From NCBI GenBank assembly GCA_030603385.1, contig JAUVXW010000030.1:1-57970 (forward strand): 57,970 bases of DNA, written 5' to 3'. Made by a program: the position numbers and the translations under genes. The notes under the pieces were generated by a model. That model was not told the origin of the DNA and did not search any database. It saw only the letters and a program-made list of their open reading frames with translations. Source of the DNA: Promethearchaeota archaeon (lineage in GTDB: Archaea; Asgardarchaeota; Lokiarchaeia; Sigyniarchaeales; SOKP01). Numbering within the stretch: the stretch's first letter is position 1; every line of letters begins with the position of its first letter. Shown here piece by piece: positions 18,094 through 42,512 of the stretch.

Positions 18094-18796
18094 GGAGAAA
18101 TCAGAATTGATTTGTGGTATAGACGAGGCTGGTAGAATATAATTCATTTCGAATTCTGTACCAAAAGGTCCCGTTCTTGGTCCTCTTGTTTTGTGTGGTG
18201 TTTGTTTTAAAAAAGATCAACTATCATATTTAGTTGAAATAGGTGTAAAAGATTCTAAGAAATTAAGTGCTAAAAGAAGGAGTACACTAGCAAAACTAAT
18301 TAAGGATAAGTGTCATTCTTTTAAAATTCTTATAGTTCCTCCAGCAGAAATTGATCAAAGGGAAGAAAAAAGAATTACATTGAATAAATTAGAAGAATTA
18401 AAAATGGCTGAAATTATTAGAGAATTAAAACCTAGCTCAATATATATTGACGCCGTCGATGTAAATGAAGATAGATTTAGAGATTCAATACTAAATCTTT
18501 TAGATTATAGTCCAGAAGAAATCATTTCAAAACACAAGGCTGATGATCTATTTCCCATAGTATCAGCGGCCTCAATCATTGCCAAGGATAAAAGAGACAC
18601 CTTAATTGAGGAAATGAAGGAAAAATATGGAGATTTTGGTTCGGGATATCCTTCGGATAAAAGAACTATTGATTTCCTTCGAAAATGGATAAAGAAGAAT
18701 AAAAAGATACCACATTTCGCTAGAAAATCATGGGCTACAACAAAAAAAATATTAGAAGAAGAACTATCTAACAGAAAAATAACTGATTTTTTCTGA
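18071..18796 (+). CDS. rnhB: Ribonuclease HII, interrupted by a 30-nt BHB intron (join 18071..18135, 18166..18796)
   Basis: LICGIDEAGR | GPVLGPLVLCGV is split by a 30-nt insert with in-frame TAA. GVKDSKKL, KADD..VSAASIIAK, GSGYPSD motifs. Start is TTG 18071 or 18107. Confidence 0.92.
18136..18165 (+). other. Putative BHB intron in rnhB mRNA (30 nt)
   Basis: Central helix TGGT/ACCA, 3-nt bulges AGA and AAA, internal stem ATATAATTC/GAATTCTGT. Confidence 0.85.
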
Positions 18797-38413: not shown

Positions 38414-38610
38414 TTTGCTATAATAATAAGATAAATAATTCAATCCTTCTCTACCTTGTTTTTTCAATCAAATTTTACTCTTTTTTTAAATTATTTAACC
38501 AATTCACACACACTTCTTCCTAAGAAACCTTATTATTTGATTGATTCTATTTAATAAAAATTCTGTTATGTTATATTCAACGAAAATCTTGAAAAGAAGA
38601 AAAAAAGAAT

Positions 38611-40926
38611 TTAACTAAATAGGTATCTAATAAACATTAAATTTTTACAGATCTTAGTGAATTCACTCTGTTCTCGCCTCCTATCACCGATACGCTGATA
38701 TCCAATCAAAACTCCGTTCTCTTTAAAAGAATTCATGACATTCACAATACTATCAGTATCACTACTATCATATAAAGATAAATCAAAATTTGCTACAACT
38801 GGAGCACTTACATAATCTTGCGTTTGCGGTCTTGAATTATAAAGATTTAATCCCTCACTAGAAGATAAACTCAAAGCACCAAATAATAAGTTGAATGCAC
38901 ATAAATCTTGTACCAAACTGCCGGAACTGTCCGTCTCACGTAATACAAAAGTCTGGTGATCAACTAAAAGACCGCCTAATATCTTTATAAAATCATCAGT
39001 AAAATCGGCTAGACTCTCTTGGTTAAGGATAAAAATTTGATCAGCTCCAGTATTCTCTGCATCTGGGAAAAATGTTAGATAAGATGCACGTCTCGAGTAC
39101 GCAAACCCGTCAAAATAAGTAGTGAAAGGACATATCTCAATATTATGCCCGTTTTGTAAGTCTGCAACCAATTTTTTCAAGAAATTTCCAAAGTTGACAA
39201 TCTCATTTCTTTGGGCTCTTAGAATGTTCTCTGTGTAATATTCTACAACTCCTTTATAAGGTGTCCTCCGTACCCCTTCGCCCTCTGTATGAGGATGAAT
39301 TCTTGCTGGATACAACGAATCAGTTATCAATTTCACATCCTTAGATTGAAAATAATTATTAAATATCAACGCATCCAGTTTAACGGCCTTCAAGCCCTCT
39401 AAAGTACTTGGGAAGCCAGACACTTTGAGCTTAAGGACGAACCACTTAGAATTATCTGCGCCTCCCGAGAGGAAATATTCTAATAATCGACCTCTTGTTT
39501 TTACACTTCCCTTATCTGCGAATATCATAAAGTTTAATGATTCTGCAATCATTAACAATAACATCGATTTCTGAGAAGGTGTGATTAAATTATCTCGGAT
39601 AGCCTTGTCAATTTTATCTTCATATATATCCAAAAAGGTGAAATATAGTTCTGCATTTCCAGGGACTCTTGTCTTAAAAGGATCCACTTGTCTATCAGGT
39701 ATAGTAAATACTTCTCTTGCTGTGATGTAGGATAAGAAATCATAGAAACTGGGGAGATTGCTTCTGGAAATCTCTGTCGCATCTTTATAAAGTGGAGCCC
39801 ACCTTTCTGTTGGAAGAGCTGGCATAAGATCAACAACAAAATCATTGAGCCCAGTCTGTAAATTTTCTGCTATTCCTAGAGTATATAGATCCAAGAGAAT
39901 ATTTTGAGCTCTGTAATATGTATTTCTGCTTAATAATTTTCCGAGTCTGGACTGTGGAATAATATCATGGAGCAATGAAATATGAGTATCTTTAGCGTGA
40001 GTGAAAAACGCTTGCCAAGTATGAGCGATAACTTGGGCATTATAATCTTTCGCAAACAGTGACCCTGTTCTAAAGGCAATGAAGGTAAACCTACCAAAGA
40101 TGGTGACTATTAATTCTTTTATTATCTTTGCTAATTGCAGATCATTATCATCAAAATATTGACCATCGGAAAAAGGAACTTTGGATTTAATACCTGAAGA
40201 CTTAATGAAAGCTTCATAATCCTTACCTTGATAAACATAGTCGGTGAAGATTTGATACCATGCTTTGTACCAGTCTTTTTCAGATTGCTTCTTTATTATT
40301 AAACTGCTGACTTTATATTCGTTACCTTCATTTCTTACATCGTTATAGCAAATCTTATATAATAAATTATTAGGATCTTTAAAGTTAATACCACCTAGTA
40401 AGTCTTTGAGTAGTTGTCCAACTTTTTCCAAGGTAAGACCCGAACTCACGATACCATTTTTTATAAAAGAATTTAAGTTGGAAAAAATATCATTAATAGG
40501 AAGAATTGAGGGAGTCTTAGTGGTAGCAAGCTGCATTGATATTAAACTATCAATCTTTGATAATAATTCTTTTGCTTCTGATTTCATCTCTTCAGTTATT
40601 CTATAGAAATTCAACCAATCAGTCTCAGTCAATTTTCCTTTTTTAGATTTAGAAAAGCCTTGAAAATCTGCGTAATACTCTTTAAAATATTTATATTTAA
40701 GATCATATTTCAAAAATGGTGATATCAGATTTGTCTTAGAGATTGCAATTTGATAAGAGTCTCCAAATCGAGTAAAAATGCTACTGACAACCTGAAGACC
40801 ATATTGTTTACCCCCAGTCTCCAGAATATTATCTTCAAACGCAGTTTTAACGTAGTAGTTATCCGACCACCATTCAACACCATAATCATTTATAACATCG
40901 TCTTTAAACATAAACCTGTTATACAA
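38611..40926 (-). CDS. Large hypothetical protein (771 aa or more)
   Basis: Uninterrupted 2.3-kb ORF; frame open about 43 more codons upstream. No recognised motif. Confidence 0.75.
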   Translation of the reverse strand: MYNRFMFKDDVINDYGVEWWSDNYYVKTAFEDNILETGGKQYGLQVVSSIFTRFGDSYQIAISKTNLISPFLKYDLKYKYFKEYYADFQGFSKSKKGKLTETDWLNFYRITEEMKSEAKELLSKIDSLISMQLATTKTPSILPINDIFSNLNSFIKNGIVSSGLTLEKVGQLLKDLLGGINFKDPNNLLYKICYNDVRNEGNEYKVSSLIIKKQSEKDWYKAWYQIFTDYVYQGKDYEAFIKSSGIKSKVPFSDGQYFDDNDLQLAKIIKELIVTIFGRFTFIAFRTGSLFAKDYNAQVIAHTWQAFFTHAKDTHISLLHDIIPQSRLGKLLSRNTYYRAQNILLDLYTLGIAENLQTGLNDFVVDLMPALPTERWAPLYKDATEISRSNLPSFYDFLSYITAREVFTIPDRQVDPFKTRVPGNAELYFTFLDIYEDKIDKAIRDNLITPSQKSMLLLMIAESLNFMIFADKGSVKTRGRLLEYFLSGGADNSKWFVLKLKVSGFPSTLEGLKAVKLDALIFNNYFQSKDVKLITDSLYPARIHPHTEGEGVRRTPYKGVVEYYTENILRAQRNEIVNFGNFLKKLVADLQNGHNIEICPFTTYFDGFAYSRRASYLTFFPDAENTGADQIFILNQESLADFTDDFIKILGGLLVDHQTFVLRETDSSGSLVQDLCAFNLLFGALSLSSSEGLNLYNSRPQTQDYVSAPVVANFDLSLYDSSDTDSIVNVMNSFKENGVLIGYQRIGDRRREQSEFTKICKNLMFIRYLFS

Positions 40927-41725
40927 TTTGTTCCCATTATGATCTGTTAAGATTACTTGATGAATATTTCCTGATGAGTCTAAATATCCTAGAACATAAC
41001 CTTTTTCAGCGATCTTGTAAGGATCATTACTACTGAATGGGAATATTCACACCACTCAATATTTAAGATTACCACAAAAGGCAAGAGATTTGCCCTCTAT
41101 TTATCCACCCATCATCCTTATTTGTTCAACAATTATCGTCATTTTGACTTGGAAGACATATATGCGCAATATAAACGTCATTCCTCACGGGTAACACTAA
41201 TAAGATATCTCCTGTTTTTTTTCTTAGGTATCCTAATTTTTAGCCTGTTAGCAGGTGCCATTATTCTAATAGGTATTAGTCTCAAAGGAATATTATGGGT
41301 ACCTCAAATTTCAACTCAATGCTCTATTCAATGTCATAGGTGCCTATTGGCATTGATGTGATAAGGGATAAATATTCGTAGCAGTAAGGGTTTCATTTGA
41401 CGAAAAGCTGGGGGAGAACTAGAGTAAAAGTTGTCTTGTAGTTTAGTAAAATAAGAATTTCCCTTTTTTCTCCATATAAATAATAAGGTTTCTTAGGATT
41501 GTTTATTGCCTCTAAACTTTTTTGTTTAAAATCTCTAAATTTTTTGGTTTAGTGTTTTGTCTTAATTTTTATATTTTAGTATTTTTTATATAGACAAAAT
41601 ATAAATTTCATTAATTATTTCATTGTTCATAATAGAATTAAAAAGAAATGTAAAAAAATAACATAAATTAAAAGAATTAAGTAAATGTTTAAGGATTTTA
41701 ATCCAAATAAGGAGGTTATTAAAAA

Positions 41726-42512
41726 ATGTTTCAGCAAGCAGGACGCGGGTATGATATGGCTATTACGCAATTCTCACCCGAGGGACGGCTTTTTCAAGTT
41801 GAGTATGCTATTGAAGCCGTTCGAAGAGGAACAACCGCAATAGTGTGTCGGAATAAAAGCTCTGTTGTGTTTGCGGTTGAGAAAAAGAGCTCTGAGCTTC
41901 AAGAACAAAGCATGGGTTCGGAAAAAATATTTAAAATTGACGACCACATTGGCGTAGCTATTGCAGGATTGACCGCGGACGCTAGAGTACTAATCTTAAG
42001 TCCCACAGGCGACTGAGAGTACTAATCGATCGCGCCCGCGTTCAAGCTCAAGTTAATTTATTGAATTATGATGAGAAAATCTCTGTGAAGGACAGCACGA
42101 TAAATATTTGCGAGTATAAGCAAGTATTCACTCAAAACTAGGCGGAGCTTATCCGTTAGTGAGCCATGCCGGTGTGCGACCTTTTGGAGTTTCTTTTCTG
42201 ATTGCTGGAATTGATGCAAATGGACCCTCCTTATATCTCACTGATCCGAGTGGAGCTTTTTGGAATTATTTCGCCTTCGCTATCGGATCGGGTTCGACTG
42301 AAGCAAGGGCTTACCTTGAAGAACATTATAATAAAGATATGAGTGATGAGGAATTAAAATTATTACCCTTAAGAGCTCTCAAGGAATTGATGGATGATAA
42401 TTTAGATAAAAATACATGTGATGTAGCTTTTATATTGAAAGAGGATAAAACGTTTAAACTTCTAAGTTTAGATGAAGTGGAAGAATTACTAAGTAAATTA
42501 TCAGATTCCTAA
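41726..42512 (+). CDS. psmA: Proteasome subunit alpha with two BHB introns (join 41726..41992, 42025..42136, 42166..42512; 241 aa)
   Basis: [20 protein letters not shown]; spliced [10 protein letters not shown]|IDRARVQAQ...KQVFTQ|[10 protein letters not shown]; TDPSG, AIGSG. Located upstream of sdo1-rrp4. Confidence 0.93.
41984..42027 (+). repeat. 12-bp direct repeat AGAGTACTAATC (41984..41995 and 42016..42027)
   Basis: Exact repeat spanning both splice junctions of psmA intron 1. Confidence 0.95.
41993..42024 (+). other. Putative BHB intron 1 in psmA mRNA (32 nt)
   Basis: Central helix GTAC/GTAC, bulges TAA and TAA, inner stem TCTT(A)AGTC/GACTGAGA. Confidence 0.87.
42137..42165 (+). other. 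Putative BHB intron 2 in psmA mRNA (29 nt)
   Basis: Central helix CTCA/TGAG, bulges AAA and CCA, inner stem CTAG(G)CGGA/TCCGTTAG. Confidence 0.87.

What the first reader, a model, noticed from the sequence alone, without database searches (positions are those of the whole stretch)
41993..42024. 32-nt BHB intron 1 in proteasome alpha subunit gene
The insert shifts the frame and stops the ORF at 42016. Helix GTAC(41987-90)/GTAC(42019-22), bulges TAA (41991-93) and TAA (42023-25), inner stem TCTT(A)AGTC/GACTGAGA. Removal gives [15 protein letters not shown] and recovers a 112-nt middle exon (42025..42136) that the ORF track misses.
Basis: partly seen in the sequence, partly recalled or inferred. 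Interest (0 to 1): 0.88.

Follow-up and report, generated by a model that had tools for sequence, protein, structure and literature searches.

The report
tRNA-type mini-intron in Asgard proteasome gene
A proteasome alpha-subunit gene of an Asgard (Promethearchaeota) archaeon is interrupted by a 32-base insert shaped like a tRNA intron, with a 29-base one further on; comparison with relatives indicates both are cut out of the mRNA by the tRNA-splicing enzymes, which the papers I could search report inside only one other archaeal coding sequence (cbf5).

Summary
Window 41993-42024 is a 32-nt insert in a proteasome alpha gene (41726-42512, + strand). It forms a strict bulge-helix-bulge (BHB) motif. 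Cutting after the second base of each bulge restores the frame.

- About 50 intron-less orthologues in the genus are exactly colinear with the spliced product. Pfam Proteasome positions run 1-60, 61-96 and 99-189 over the three exons.
- Homologous 30-nt introns sit at the same site in two other allele types from at least 10 independent metagenome assemblies. They show two compensatory base-pair changes.
- Intron 2 (42137-42165) recurs in many more assemblies and in two genus genomes.
- dN/dS across exons 1-2 is 0.014-0.035 with saturated dS, so this is not a pseudogene.
- The genome encodes EndA alpha and beta subunits and RtcB.

Intron presence is patchy. The sister genome, 97-98% identical on both flanks, lacks both introns.

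Earlier notes of this scan flag similar introns on other DNA of the same genome (histone, hdrB, elf1, uvrB, uL11). I verified one such note on this window itself, in rnhB.

Verdict: a genuine BHB mRNA intron, and a new member of a known but very rare kind.

The parts
41710..41715 (+). Shine-Dalgarno-like AGGAGG upstream of the psmA start codon
   Evidence: Read directly. The same AAGGAGGTTATTAAAAA-ATG context is present in the sister genome G019.
41726..41992 (+). psmA exon 1 (89 codons)
   Evidence: Pfam Proteasome_A_N (8e-14) and Proteasome profile positions 1-60. It is 87-98% aa identical to genus orthologues and ends exactly where their exon-2-equivalent begins.
41993..42024 (+). BHB intron 1, 32 nt (the finding)
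   Evidence: Absent from the orthologues of 22 congeners that I aligned. Homologous 30-nt introns occupy the same site in L053/L074/L075 and L067-L073.
41985..42027 (+). BHB core of intron 1: outer pairs 41985-86/42026-27, central helix 41987-90/42019-22, bulges 41991-93 and 42023-25, inner stem 41994-42002/42011-18. It contains the 12-nt direct repeat AGAGTACTAATC (41984-95 and 42016-27).
   Evidence: repeat D11. The repeat is what a two-fold symmetric BHB built on the palindrome GUAC must look like.
41970..42044 (+). Extended GC-rich exon-exon stem (41970-82 with 42032-44) that closes the BHB
   Evidence: Minimum-energy fold. Helix 1 of the alignment is paired in 93% of cells across the three intron-1 alleles.
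42025..42136 (+). psmA exon 2 (112 nt, 37 codons plus 1 nt)
   Evidence: Pfam Proteasome profile positions 61-96. It is 89-97% aa identical to genus orthologues.
42137..42165 (+). BHB intron 2, 29 nt: central helix CTCA 42131-34 / TGAG 42160-63, bulges AAA 42135-37 and CCA 42164-66
   Evidence: The same site and length occur in genus genomes G041 and G047. Introns of 29-32 nt occur at this site in many metagenome assemblies, with compensatory pairs.
42166..42512 (+). psmA exon 3, including the stop codon
   Evidence: Pfam Proteasome profile positions 99-189. It is 97% aa identical to G019.

Best explanation
Window 41993-42024 is a genuine archaeal bulge-helix-bulge intron inside the coding sequence of a proteasome alpha-subunit mRNA. 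A second such intron lies at 42137-42165, making a three-exon gene.

Proposed mechanism:
1. In the transcript, the last bases of exon 1 pair with the last bases of the intron to form the 4-bp central helix GUAC/GUAC.
2. A 3-nt bulge (UAA) sits on each strand. The intron's own hairpin lies on one side, and an exon-exon stem closes the other side.
3. The heterotetrameric (alpha-beta)2 splicing endonuclease encoded in the genome cuts after the second base of each bulge.
4. RtcB joins the exons. The intron is presumably released as a small circle.
5. The joined mRNA encodes an ordinary 241-aa alpha subunit.

Shown here: the structure, exact colinearity with intron-less orthologues, homologous introns in other alleles with compensatory changes, purifying selection on the exons, and the presence of the enzymes.

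Inferred, not shown: the cleavage and ligation themselves.
For: 1.
2. The three exons match Pfam Proteasome profile positions 1-60, 61-96 and 99-189.
3. In 22 congeners and 6 genomes of other families in the order, the three exon equivalents abut with no insert. The G000 sequence with 41993-42024 and 42137-42165 removed aligns base for base. In all, 47 genus orthologues have full-length open frames.
4. Intron 1 has 30-nt homologues at the same site in two further allele types. These come from 10 contigs in 10 assemblies (seven ERZ250734xx, ERZ23498717, SRR29492072 and SRR29492073), so it is not an assembly artefact.
5. On the three intron-1 alleles the canonical BHB is paired in 96.5% of cells, against 28-49% when partners are slid. 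Two pairs show compensatory changes: C-G to U-A and A-U to G-C.
6. dN/dS over exons 1-2 is 0.014-0.035 with dS above 1.4, including against the intron-2 carriers G041 and G047. Against the two-intron allele L070, dN is 0.037 and dS is too saturated to estimate.
7. The genome holds two EndA paralogues and RtcB. One paralogue (contig C44) has Tyr, His and Lys at the positions I read as the catalytic triad. The other (contig C9) lacks the His. RtcB is on contig C39. Asgard archaea are reported to have (alpha-beta)2 EndA with the L1 loop, the insert tied to broad substrate specificity in TACK EndAs (PMC5829648).
8. A third insert of the same build, 18136-18165, restores the GIDEAGRGP motif of RNase HII in this window.
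Against: The exact 32-nt G000 intron occurs only in this contig.

Covariation for intron 1 rests on three alleles only; 44 of 500 shuffles reach the observed score.

For intron 2 of G000 the BHB (-8.1 kcal/mol) is not the minimum-energy fold (-13.2). Some intron-2 alleles have a mismatch in the central helix or an enlarged 3' bulge.

A genome-wide motif scan showed no excess of strict BHB hits over decoys, so the motif alone is weak evidence.
Confidence: 0.88

Rival explanations
1. The gene is a decaying pseudogene. Two small insertions broke this alpha-subunit copy, and the intact paralogue on contig C4 supplies the function.
For: A second, uninterrupted alpha subunit (239 aa, Proteasome_A_N plus Proteasome) exists on C4. 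The unspliced frame stops at 42016.
Against: The C4 protein is a 43%-identical paralogue present, besides the orthologue, in nearly all of the 40 relatives searched, so both genes are conserved. The only defects are the two inserts, and both have BHB geometry with cut sites that restore the frame. dN/dS is 0.014-0.035 with saturated dS, including against other intron-bearing alleles. The same inserts persist in alleles about 20% diverged in nucleotide sequence, with compensatory changes.
Confidence: 0.04
2. The insert is skipped by programmed translational bypassing, as in T4 gene 60 or mitochondrial byp elements. The ribosome would take off at CUA 41990-92 and land at the identical CUA 42022-24, skipping 32 nt that contain a hairpin.
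For: The 12-nt direct repeat gives matched take-off and landing codons in G000, and the gap folds into a hairpin.
Against: In the two other intron-1 alleles the would-be landing codon is CCA, not CUA. Intron 2 has no matching codons at its ends. No stop codon follows the take-off codon directly. The 3-nt bulge, 4-bp helix, 3-nt bulge geometry with exon pairing has no role in bypassing, yet it is conserved.
Confidence: 0.02
3. The insert is an assembly or binning artefact, or a strain-level indel in a metagenome-assembled genome that is not present in any living cell's functional gene.
For: The genome is a 58-contig MAG with about 7% contamination. The exact 96-aa truncated product is seen on one contig only. 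The exact intron strings were not found in the JGI metagenome collection, though that tool may leave out the genome's own records.
Against: Homologous introns at the same two sites occur in many independent assemblies from ENA, Logan, JGI and NCBI. A random artefact would not carry a canonical BHB twice in one gene.
Confidence: 0.02

Closest known systems
BHB intron in the cbf5 (pseudouridine synthase) pre-mRNA of Crenarchaeota (Watanabe et al. 2002; Yoshinari et al. 2006; Yokobori et al. 2009, PMC2738675)
   Same: Both are short introns inside a protein-coding sequence, bounded by a bulge-helix-bulge motif and removed by the tRNA-splicing endonuclease of a lineage with hetero-oligomeric (alpha-beta)2 EndA. 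Both show patchy gain and loss among relatives.
   Different: The gene (proteasome alpha) and the phylum (Promethearchaeota/Asgard) differ. Here two introns sit in one gene. Presence or absence varies even between genomes that are 97-98% identical on the flanks. No sequence homology to the cbf5 intron is claimed, and splicing here has no experimental support yet.
Canonical archaeal tRNA and rRNA BHB introns (hBHBh' motif; Marck and Grosjean 2003, cited from my own knowledge)
   Same: The motif is identical: two 3-nt bulges on opposite strands, a 4-bp helix between them, flanking helices, and a cut after the second bulge base. The expected enzymes (EndA, RtcB) are the same.
   Different: The host RNA is an mRNA. 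The outer helix is made of codons of two exons rather than an anticodon stem, so exon sequence is constrained by both the protein and the RNA structure.
BHB element in the 5' UTR of Haloferax volcanii HVO_1309 mRNA (PMC7714728)
   Same: It is an mRNA substrate of the archaeal splicing endonuclease.
   Different: That element lies in an untranslated leader and does not interrupt a reading frame. It comes from a euryarchaeon with a different EndA type (stated from my own knowledge).
Non-conventional HAC1/XBP1 mRNA splicing in eukaryotes (Ire1 plus tRNA ligase/RtcB; from my own knowledge)
   Same: It is non-spliceosomal, protein-enzyme splicing of a short intron from an mRNA, with ligation by the tRNA ligase.
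   Different: The endonuclease (Ire1) and the recognition motif (two stem-loops) are different, and that splicing is regulated. No regulation is shown here.

Membership tests
Archaeal BHB intron (substrate of splicing endonuclease EndA) | Two 3-nt bulges on opposite strands separated by a 4-bp helix | tested here: met
   GUAC 41987-90 pairs with GUAC 42019-22. The bulges are UAA 41991-93 and UAA 42023-25. The central helix is invariant in all three alleles.
Archaeal BHB intron (substrate of splicing endonuclease EndA) | Flanking helices h and h' of at least 2 bp on both sides (strict hBHBh') | tested here: met
   The outer pairs are A41986-U42026 and G41985-C42027, followed by an extended exon-exon stem. 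The inner stem has 8 bp with one bulged A. Helices are 89-100% paired across alleles.
Archaeal BHB intron (substrate of splicing endonuclease EndA) | Cutting after the second base of each bulge yields the functional mature RNA | tested here: met
   The predicted cuts at 41992|41993 and 42024|42025 remove 32 nt. The result is a CDS colinear to the base with intron-less orthologues and contiguous in the Pfam profile.
Archaeal BHB intron (substrate of splicing endonuclease EndA) | Structure maintained in evolution (covariation in homologous introns) | tested here: met
   Three alleles give 96.5% of cells paired and 2 compensatory pairs, against 28-49% paired and 0 compensatory pairs for slid controls. 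The sample is small, and 44 of 500 shuffles reach the score.
Archaeal BHB intron (substrate of splicing endonuclease EndA) | Host encodes the splicing endonuclease and an RNA ligase | tested here: met
   Two genes carry PF01974 and PF02778 (C44 and C9, 33% identical to each other). One has Tyr, His and Lys at the positions I read as the catalytic triad, and the other lacks the His. RtcB scores 1e-167 on C39.
Archaeal BHB intron (substrate of splicing endonuclease EndA) | Excision observed in RNA (spliced junction, circular or linear intron) | not testable with these tools
Pseudogene | Relaxed selection (dN/dS near 1) and accumulating further defects | tested here: not met
   dN/dS is 0.014-0.035 with dS above 1.4. 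There are no stops or frameshifts outside the two inserts.
Programmed translational bypass element (T4 gene 60 / byp type) | Identical take-off and landing codons flanking the skipped stretch | tested here: not met
   The codons are CUA/CUA in G000, but CUA/CCA in the two other intron-1 alleles, and nothing matches at intron 2.

The most novel reading that the evidence does not exclude
BHB micro-introns of about 30 nt may form a dynamic, genome-wide class of mRNA introns in Promethearchaeota. They would interrupt housekeeping genes: psmA twice and rnhB in this window, with histone, hdrB, elf1, uvrB and uL11 flagged elsewhere in the genome. They would be removed by the tRNA-splicing machinery. 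They would also be gained, lost or exchanged between species by recombination of whole alleles.

The last point rests on G000, whose intron-bearing 5' half of psmA, together with a 3-kb upstream insertion, is divergent in a genome otherwise 97-98% identical to an intron-less sister.

Probability: 0.55. Interest if true: 0.85.

Novelty: new member of a known kind. Interest (0 to 1): 0.7.

Why it matters
A 2020 study of endonuclease substrates states that a BHB intron had been reported in only one archaeal mRNA, cbf5 of Crenarchaeota, besides the 5'-UTR element it describes itself (PMC7714728). My four full-text searches found no report of BHB introns in Asgard protein-coding genes.

A three-exon proteasome gene in Promethearchaeota, with the same introns seen in many natural populations, has several consequences:
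- The tRNA-splicing machinery appears to act on mRNAs in the lineage closest to eukaryotes.
- Gene callers split or truncate such genes. Public records list the pieces as "hypothetical protein" or as a partial proteasome subunit.
- It offers a tractable case of recent intron presence/absence polymorphism for studying how protein-enzyme-spliced introns arise and spread.

Tried and rejected

2. Exact-string scans of the JGI metagenome collection for intron 1 and intron 2 of G000 found nothing. The tool may leave out the genome's own records.

3. A degenerate pattern for the intron-1 BHB ends over 54 genus genomes matched only G000 above control level.

4. blastn-short of both introns against the whole genome found no other copy. 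They are therefore not a repeated mobile sequence, and no tRNA intron looks like a donor.

5. Genome-wide scan for BHB geometry that joins open frames: 621 hits against 634-656 in mis-registered decoys under lenient rules, and 10 against 6-11 under strict rules. The scan cannot tell how many coding BHB introns the genome has. It also missed the real rnhB intron, so it is not evidence that such introns are rare.

6. Target-site duplication as the origin of intron 1. The 12-nt direct repeat is what a two-fold symmetric BHB on the palindrome GUAC requires, the other alleles keep 10 of 11 of its bases, and intron 2 has no repeat. The repeat therefore neither supports nor excludes a duplication origin.

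7. The claim that synonymous sites of the flanking exons were reshaped to build the outer stem. The intron-less G019 already has much of the same GC-rich complementarity because of its Asp-Ala-Arg / Asp-Arg-Ala-Arg codons. I dropped this as evidence.

8. The 811-aa ORF in the upstream insertion has no Pfam or PADLOC hit.

9. L077 (contig coverage about 1) is full of frameshifts and was ignored. For L076 I could not find a BHB register that gives the right product.

10. G006, G042 and L064 were uninformative because of N gaps or contig ends.

Full report
**What is in the sequence**

A gene for a proteasome alpha subunit starts at ATG 41726, preceded by AGGAGG at 41710-15. It reads in frame until TGA at 42014-16. 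The protein continues in a second frame (42025-42136) and then in a third (from 42166 to the stop at 42510-12).

The three pieces match the Pfam Proteasome profile at positions 1-60, 61-96 and 99-189. The first piece also carries the Proteasome_A_N signature. Removing 41993-42024 (32 nt) and 42137-42165 (29 nt) gives a 726-nt CDS including the stop. It encodes 241 aa and reads ...[15 protein letters not shown]... and ...VFTQNAGVRPFG... across the joints.

**The BHB motif of intron 1**

| Element | Coordinates |
|---|---|
| Central helix | GUAC 41987-90 with GUAC 42019-22 |
| Bulges | UAA 41991-93 and UAA 42023-25 |
| Inner stem | 41994-42002 with 42011-18 (8 bp, one bulged A) |
| Outer pairs | A41986-U42026 and G41985-C42027 |
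| Extended exon-exon stem | 41970-82 with 42032-44 (GC-rich) |

RNAfold of 41970-42045 returns essentially this fold: -26.1 kcal/mol, z = -3.1, with 0 of 200 shuffles as stable.

In archaeal BHB substrates the endonuclease cuts after the second bulge base. I state this from established knowledge of tRNA introns at position 37/38.

The 12-nt direct repeat AGAGTACTAATC (D11) is the two symmetric halves of this BHB. The halves are identical because GUAC is a palindrome and GA pairs with UC.

Intron 2 has the same build: central helix CUCA/UGAG, bulges AAA and CCA, and outer pairs CA/UG. In G000, however, its BHB (-8.1 kcal/mol) competes with a more stable alternative hairpin (-13.2).

**Is it more than chance?**

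A scan of the whole 3.9-Mb genome for this geometry, combined with the joining of two open frames, gives as many hits with mis-registered decoys as with the true geometry: 621 against 634-656 under lenient rules, and 10 against 6-11 under strict rules. The motif alone therefore proves little.

The comparative evidence is what decides it. The genome is a Promethearchaeota (Asgard) MAG (58 contigs, 94% complete).
- In 22 other species of its genus and 6 genomes of other families in the order, the three exon equivalents abut directly in one frame.
- The G000 sequence without the two inserts aligns with them base for base across both joints.
- Over the whole genus (54 genomes), 47 orthologues have full-length open frames.

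**The introns are not private to this contig**

A search with the truncated exon-1 product found N-terminal psmA fragments on long contigs from many assemblies.

*Intron 1.* Two allele types carry a 30-nt insert at exactly the intron-1 site, and both also carry intron 2:
- one in ERZ23498717, SRR29492072 and SRR29492073;
- one in seven ERZ250734xx assemblies.

In these alleles the insert happens to be in frame and free of stops, so gene callers read it as ten extra residues.

The three intron-1 sequences share the GUAC/GUAC helix, the xAA bulges and the outer pairs. Their hairpins differ but stay paired. Between the two 30-nt alleles, C-G becomes U-A and A-U becomes G-C. Counted on the canonical BHB, 96.5% of cells are paired, against 28-49% when partners are slid by 1-3 columns. 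Two pairs show compensatory changes. With three sequences the shuffle control is weak (44 of 500).

*Intron 2.* It is far more widespread. It occurs in genus genomes G041 and G047 and on at least 13 further contigs. Lengths are 29-32 nt and there are several compensatory pairs. Some of these alleles have a mismatch in the central helix, or need a cut register shifted by one base (my reading).

**The gene is not a pseudogene**

Across exons 1-2, dN/dS between G000 and other alleles is 0.014-0.035 with dS above 1.4. This holds against the intron-2 carriers G041 and G047. Against the two-intron allele L070, dN is 0.037 and dS is too saturated to estimate. Intron-bearing alleles have therefore diverged to synonymous saturation while keeping the protein, which requires that the introns be removed.

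The other alpha subunit in the genome (contig C4, 239 aa) is a 43%-identical paralogue. It is found, besides the orthologue, in nearly all of the 40 relatives searched, so it is not a replacement.

**The machinery is present**

- Two EndA paralogues, each with the N-terminal and the catalytic-type domain, are 33% identical to each other.
- In their pairwise alignment the C44 protein has Tyr, His and Lys at the positions I read as the catalytic triad. The C9 protein lacks the His. This fits an alpha-beta heterotetramer (assigning the triad is my inference).
- Asgard archaea are reported to have (alpha-beta)2 EndA with the L1 loop, the insert tied to broad substrate specificity in TACK EndAs (PMC5829648).
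- RtcB is on contig C39.
- ARAGORN finds only 22 tRNA genes, 9 of them with introns. That fits heavily interrupted tRNA genes in Asgard archaea (bioRxiv 10.64898/2026.10.13.758758).

**Evolutionary pattern**

On trees of psmA and of the neighbouring SBDS gene:
- the four intron-1 alleles lie in one sub-clade that also holds intron-less G019, G002 and G004 (at least 2 changes);
- intron 2 needs at least 6 changes.

G019 is the sister of G000. The two are 97-98% identical from about 42270 rightwards and left of 38502.

Between those points G000 differs in two ways:
- It has a roughly 3.06-kb insertion (38503 to about 41565). The insertion holds an 811-aa ORF with no family hit and a perfect 21-nt inverted repeat.
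- Its promoter region and psmA exons 1-2 are only 75-90% identical to G019.

So the intron-bearing 5' half of psmA is a divergent allele, either brought in or retained by recombination. I could not tell which genome is the recombinant, nor whether the introns were gained or lost.

Two-intron metagenomic alleles also have a cargo ORF at the same upstream spot, but it is a different and unrelated ORF.

**Rivals**

- Translational bypassing fits the matched CUA codons of G000 only. The other alleles have CUA/CCA, and intron 2 has no match.
- An assembly artefact is excluded by the independent assemblies.
- A pseudogene is excluded by the selection data.

**Comparison with what is known**

A 2020 study of endonuclease substrates states that a BHB intron had been reported in only one archaeal mRNA, cbf5 of Crenarchaeota. 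It adds a 5'-UTR element in Haloferax (PMC7714728; PMC2738675). Four full-text searches found no report of BHB introns in Asgard protein-coding genes. Absence from this library is not proof of absence.

Earlier notes of this scan flag similar micro-introns elsewhere in the same genome, and one histone intron was followed up by another agent. I treat those notes as leads only. I tested one of them, the 30-nt rnhB insert at 18136-18165, whose removal restores GIDEAGRGPVLGP.

**Verdict**

This is a real BHB intron in an mRNA, and a new member of a known but very rare kind. Confidence is 0.88. The missing piece is RNA evidence.

Noticed in passing
window 42137-42165: A second BHB intron (29 nt) lies in the same gene. 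Its homologues (29-32 nt) sit at the same site in genus genomes G041 and G047 and in many metagenome assemblies, with compensatory changes in the inner stem. Its distribution needs at least 6 gains or losses on the psmA tree.
   Followed up: yes
window 18136-18165: A 30-nt stop-containing insert lies in rnhB. Removing it restores the RNase HII motif GIDEAGRGPVLGP in a 240-aa frame. The local fold pairs UGGU 18130-33 with ACCA 18160-63.
   Followed up: partly
window 38503-41565: G000 has a roughly 3.06-kb insertion relative to its sister genome G019, between the conserved upstream gene and the psmA promoter. It holds an 811-aa ORF on the minus strand (38611-41046) with no Pfam or PADLOC hit. 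It also has a perfect 21-nt inverted repeat (38518-38538 / 41478-41498). Two-intron metagenomic alleles (L074, L069) carry an unrelated 352-aa ORF at the same spot, so this is a variable cargo site.
   Followed up: partly
window 41565-42270: The promoter region and psmA exons 1-2 of G000 are only 75-90% identical to G019, while both flanks are 97-98% identical. A recombination boundary lies inside exon 3, near CDS position 480.
   Followed up: partly
L076:984-1013 (ENA ERZ27271168, 15.9-kb contig): In another Promethearchaeota assembly, the paralogous alpha subunit (the contig C4 type) carries a 30-nt insert with an in-frame TGA, between ...YTQYGG and IRPFG. This is close to the intron-2 site. 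I could not find a canonical BHB register that gives the right product.
   Followed up: partly
proteins P0026, P0028, P0030, P0031, P0040, P0021: Further psmA fragments from metagenomes diverge from the family at other points: after [25 protein letters not shown] and EYLQ. They may mark other insertion sites or be chimeric short contigs.
   Followed up: no
whole genome G000: ARAGORN detects only 22 tRNA genes in a 94%-complete 3.9-Mb genome, and 9 of them have introns. This suggests many tRNA genes are too interrupted to be found.
   Followed up: no
public records behind P0020 and P0022: Public annotations list the pieces of intron-split psmA genes as 'hypothetical protein' or as a partial proteasome subunit. 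Gene callers therefore systematically mis-annotate these genes.
   Followed up: no
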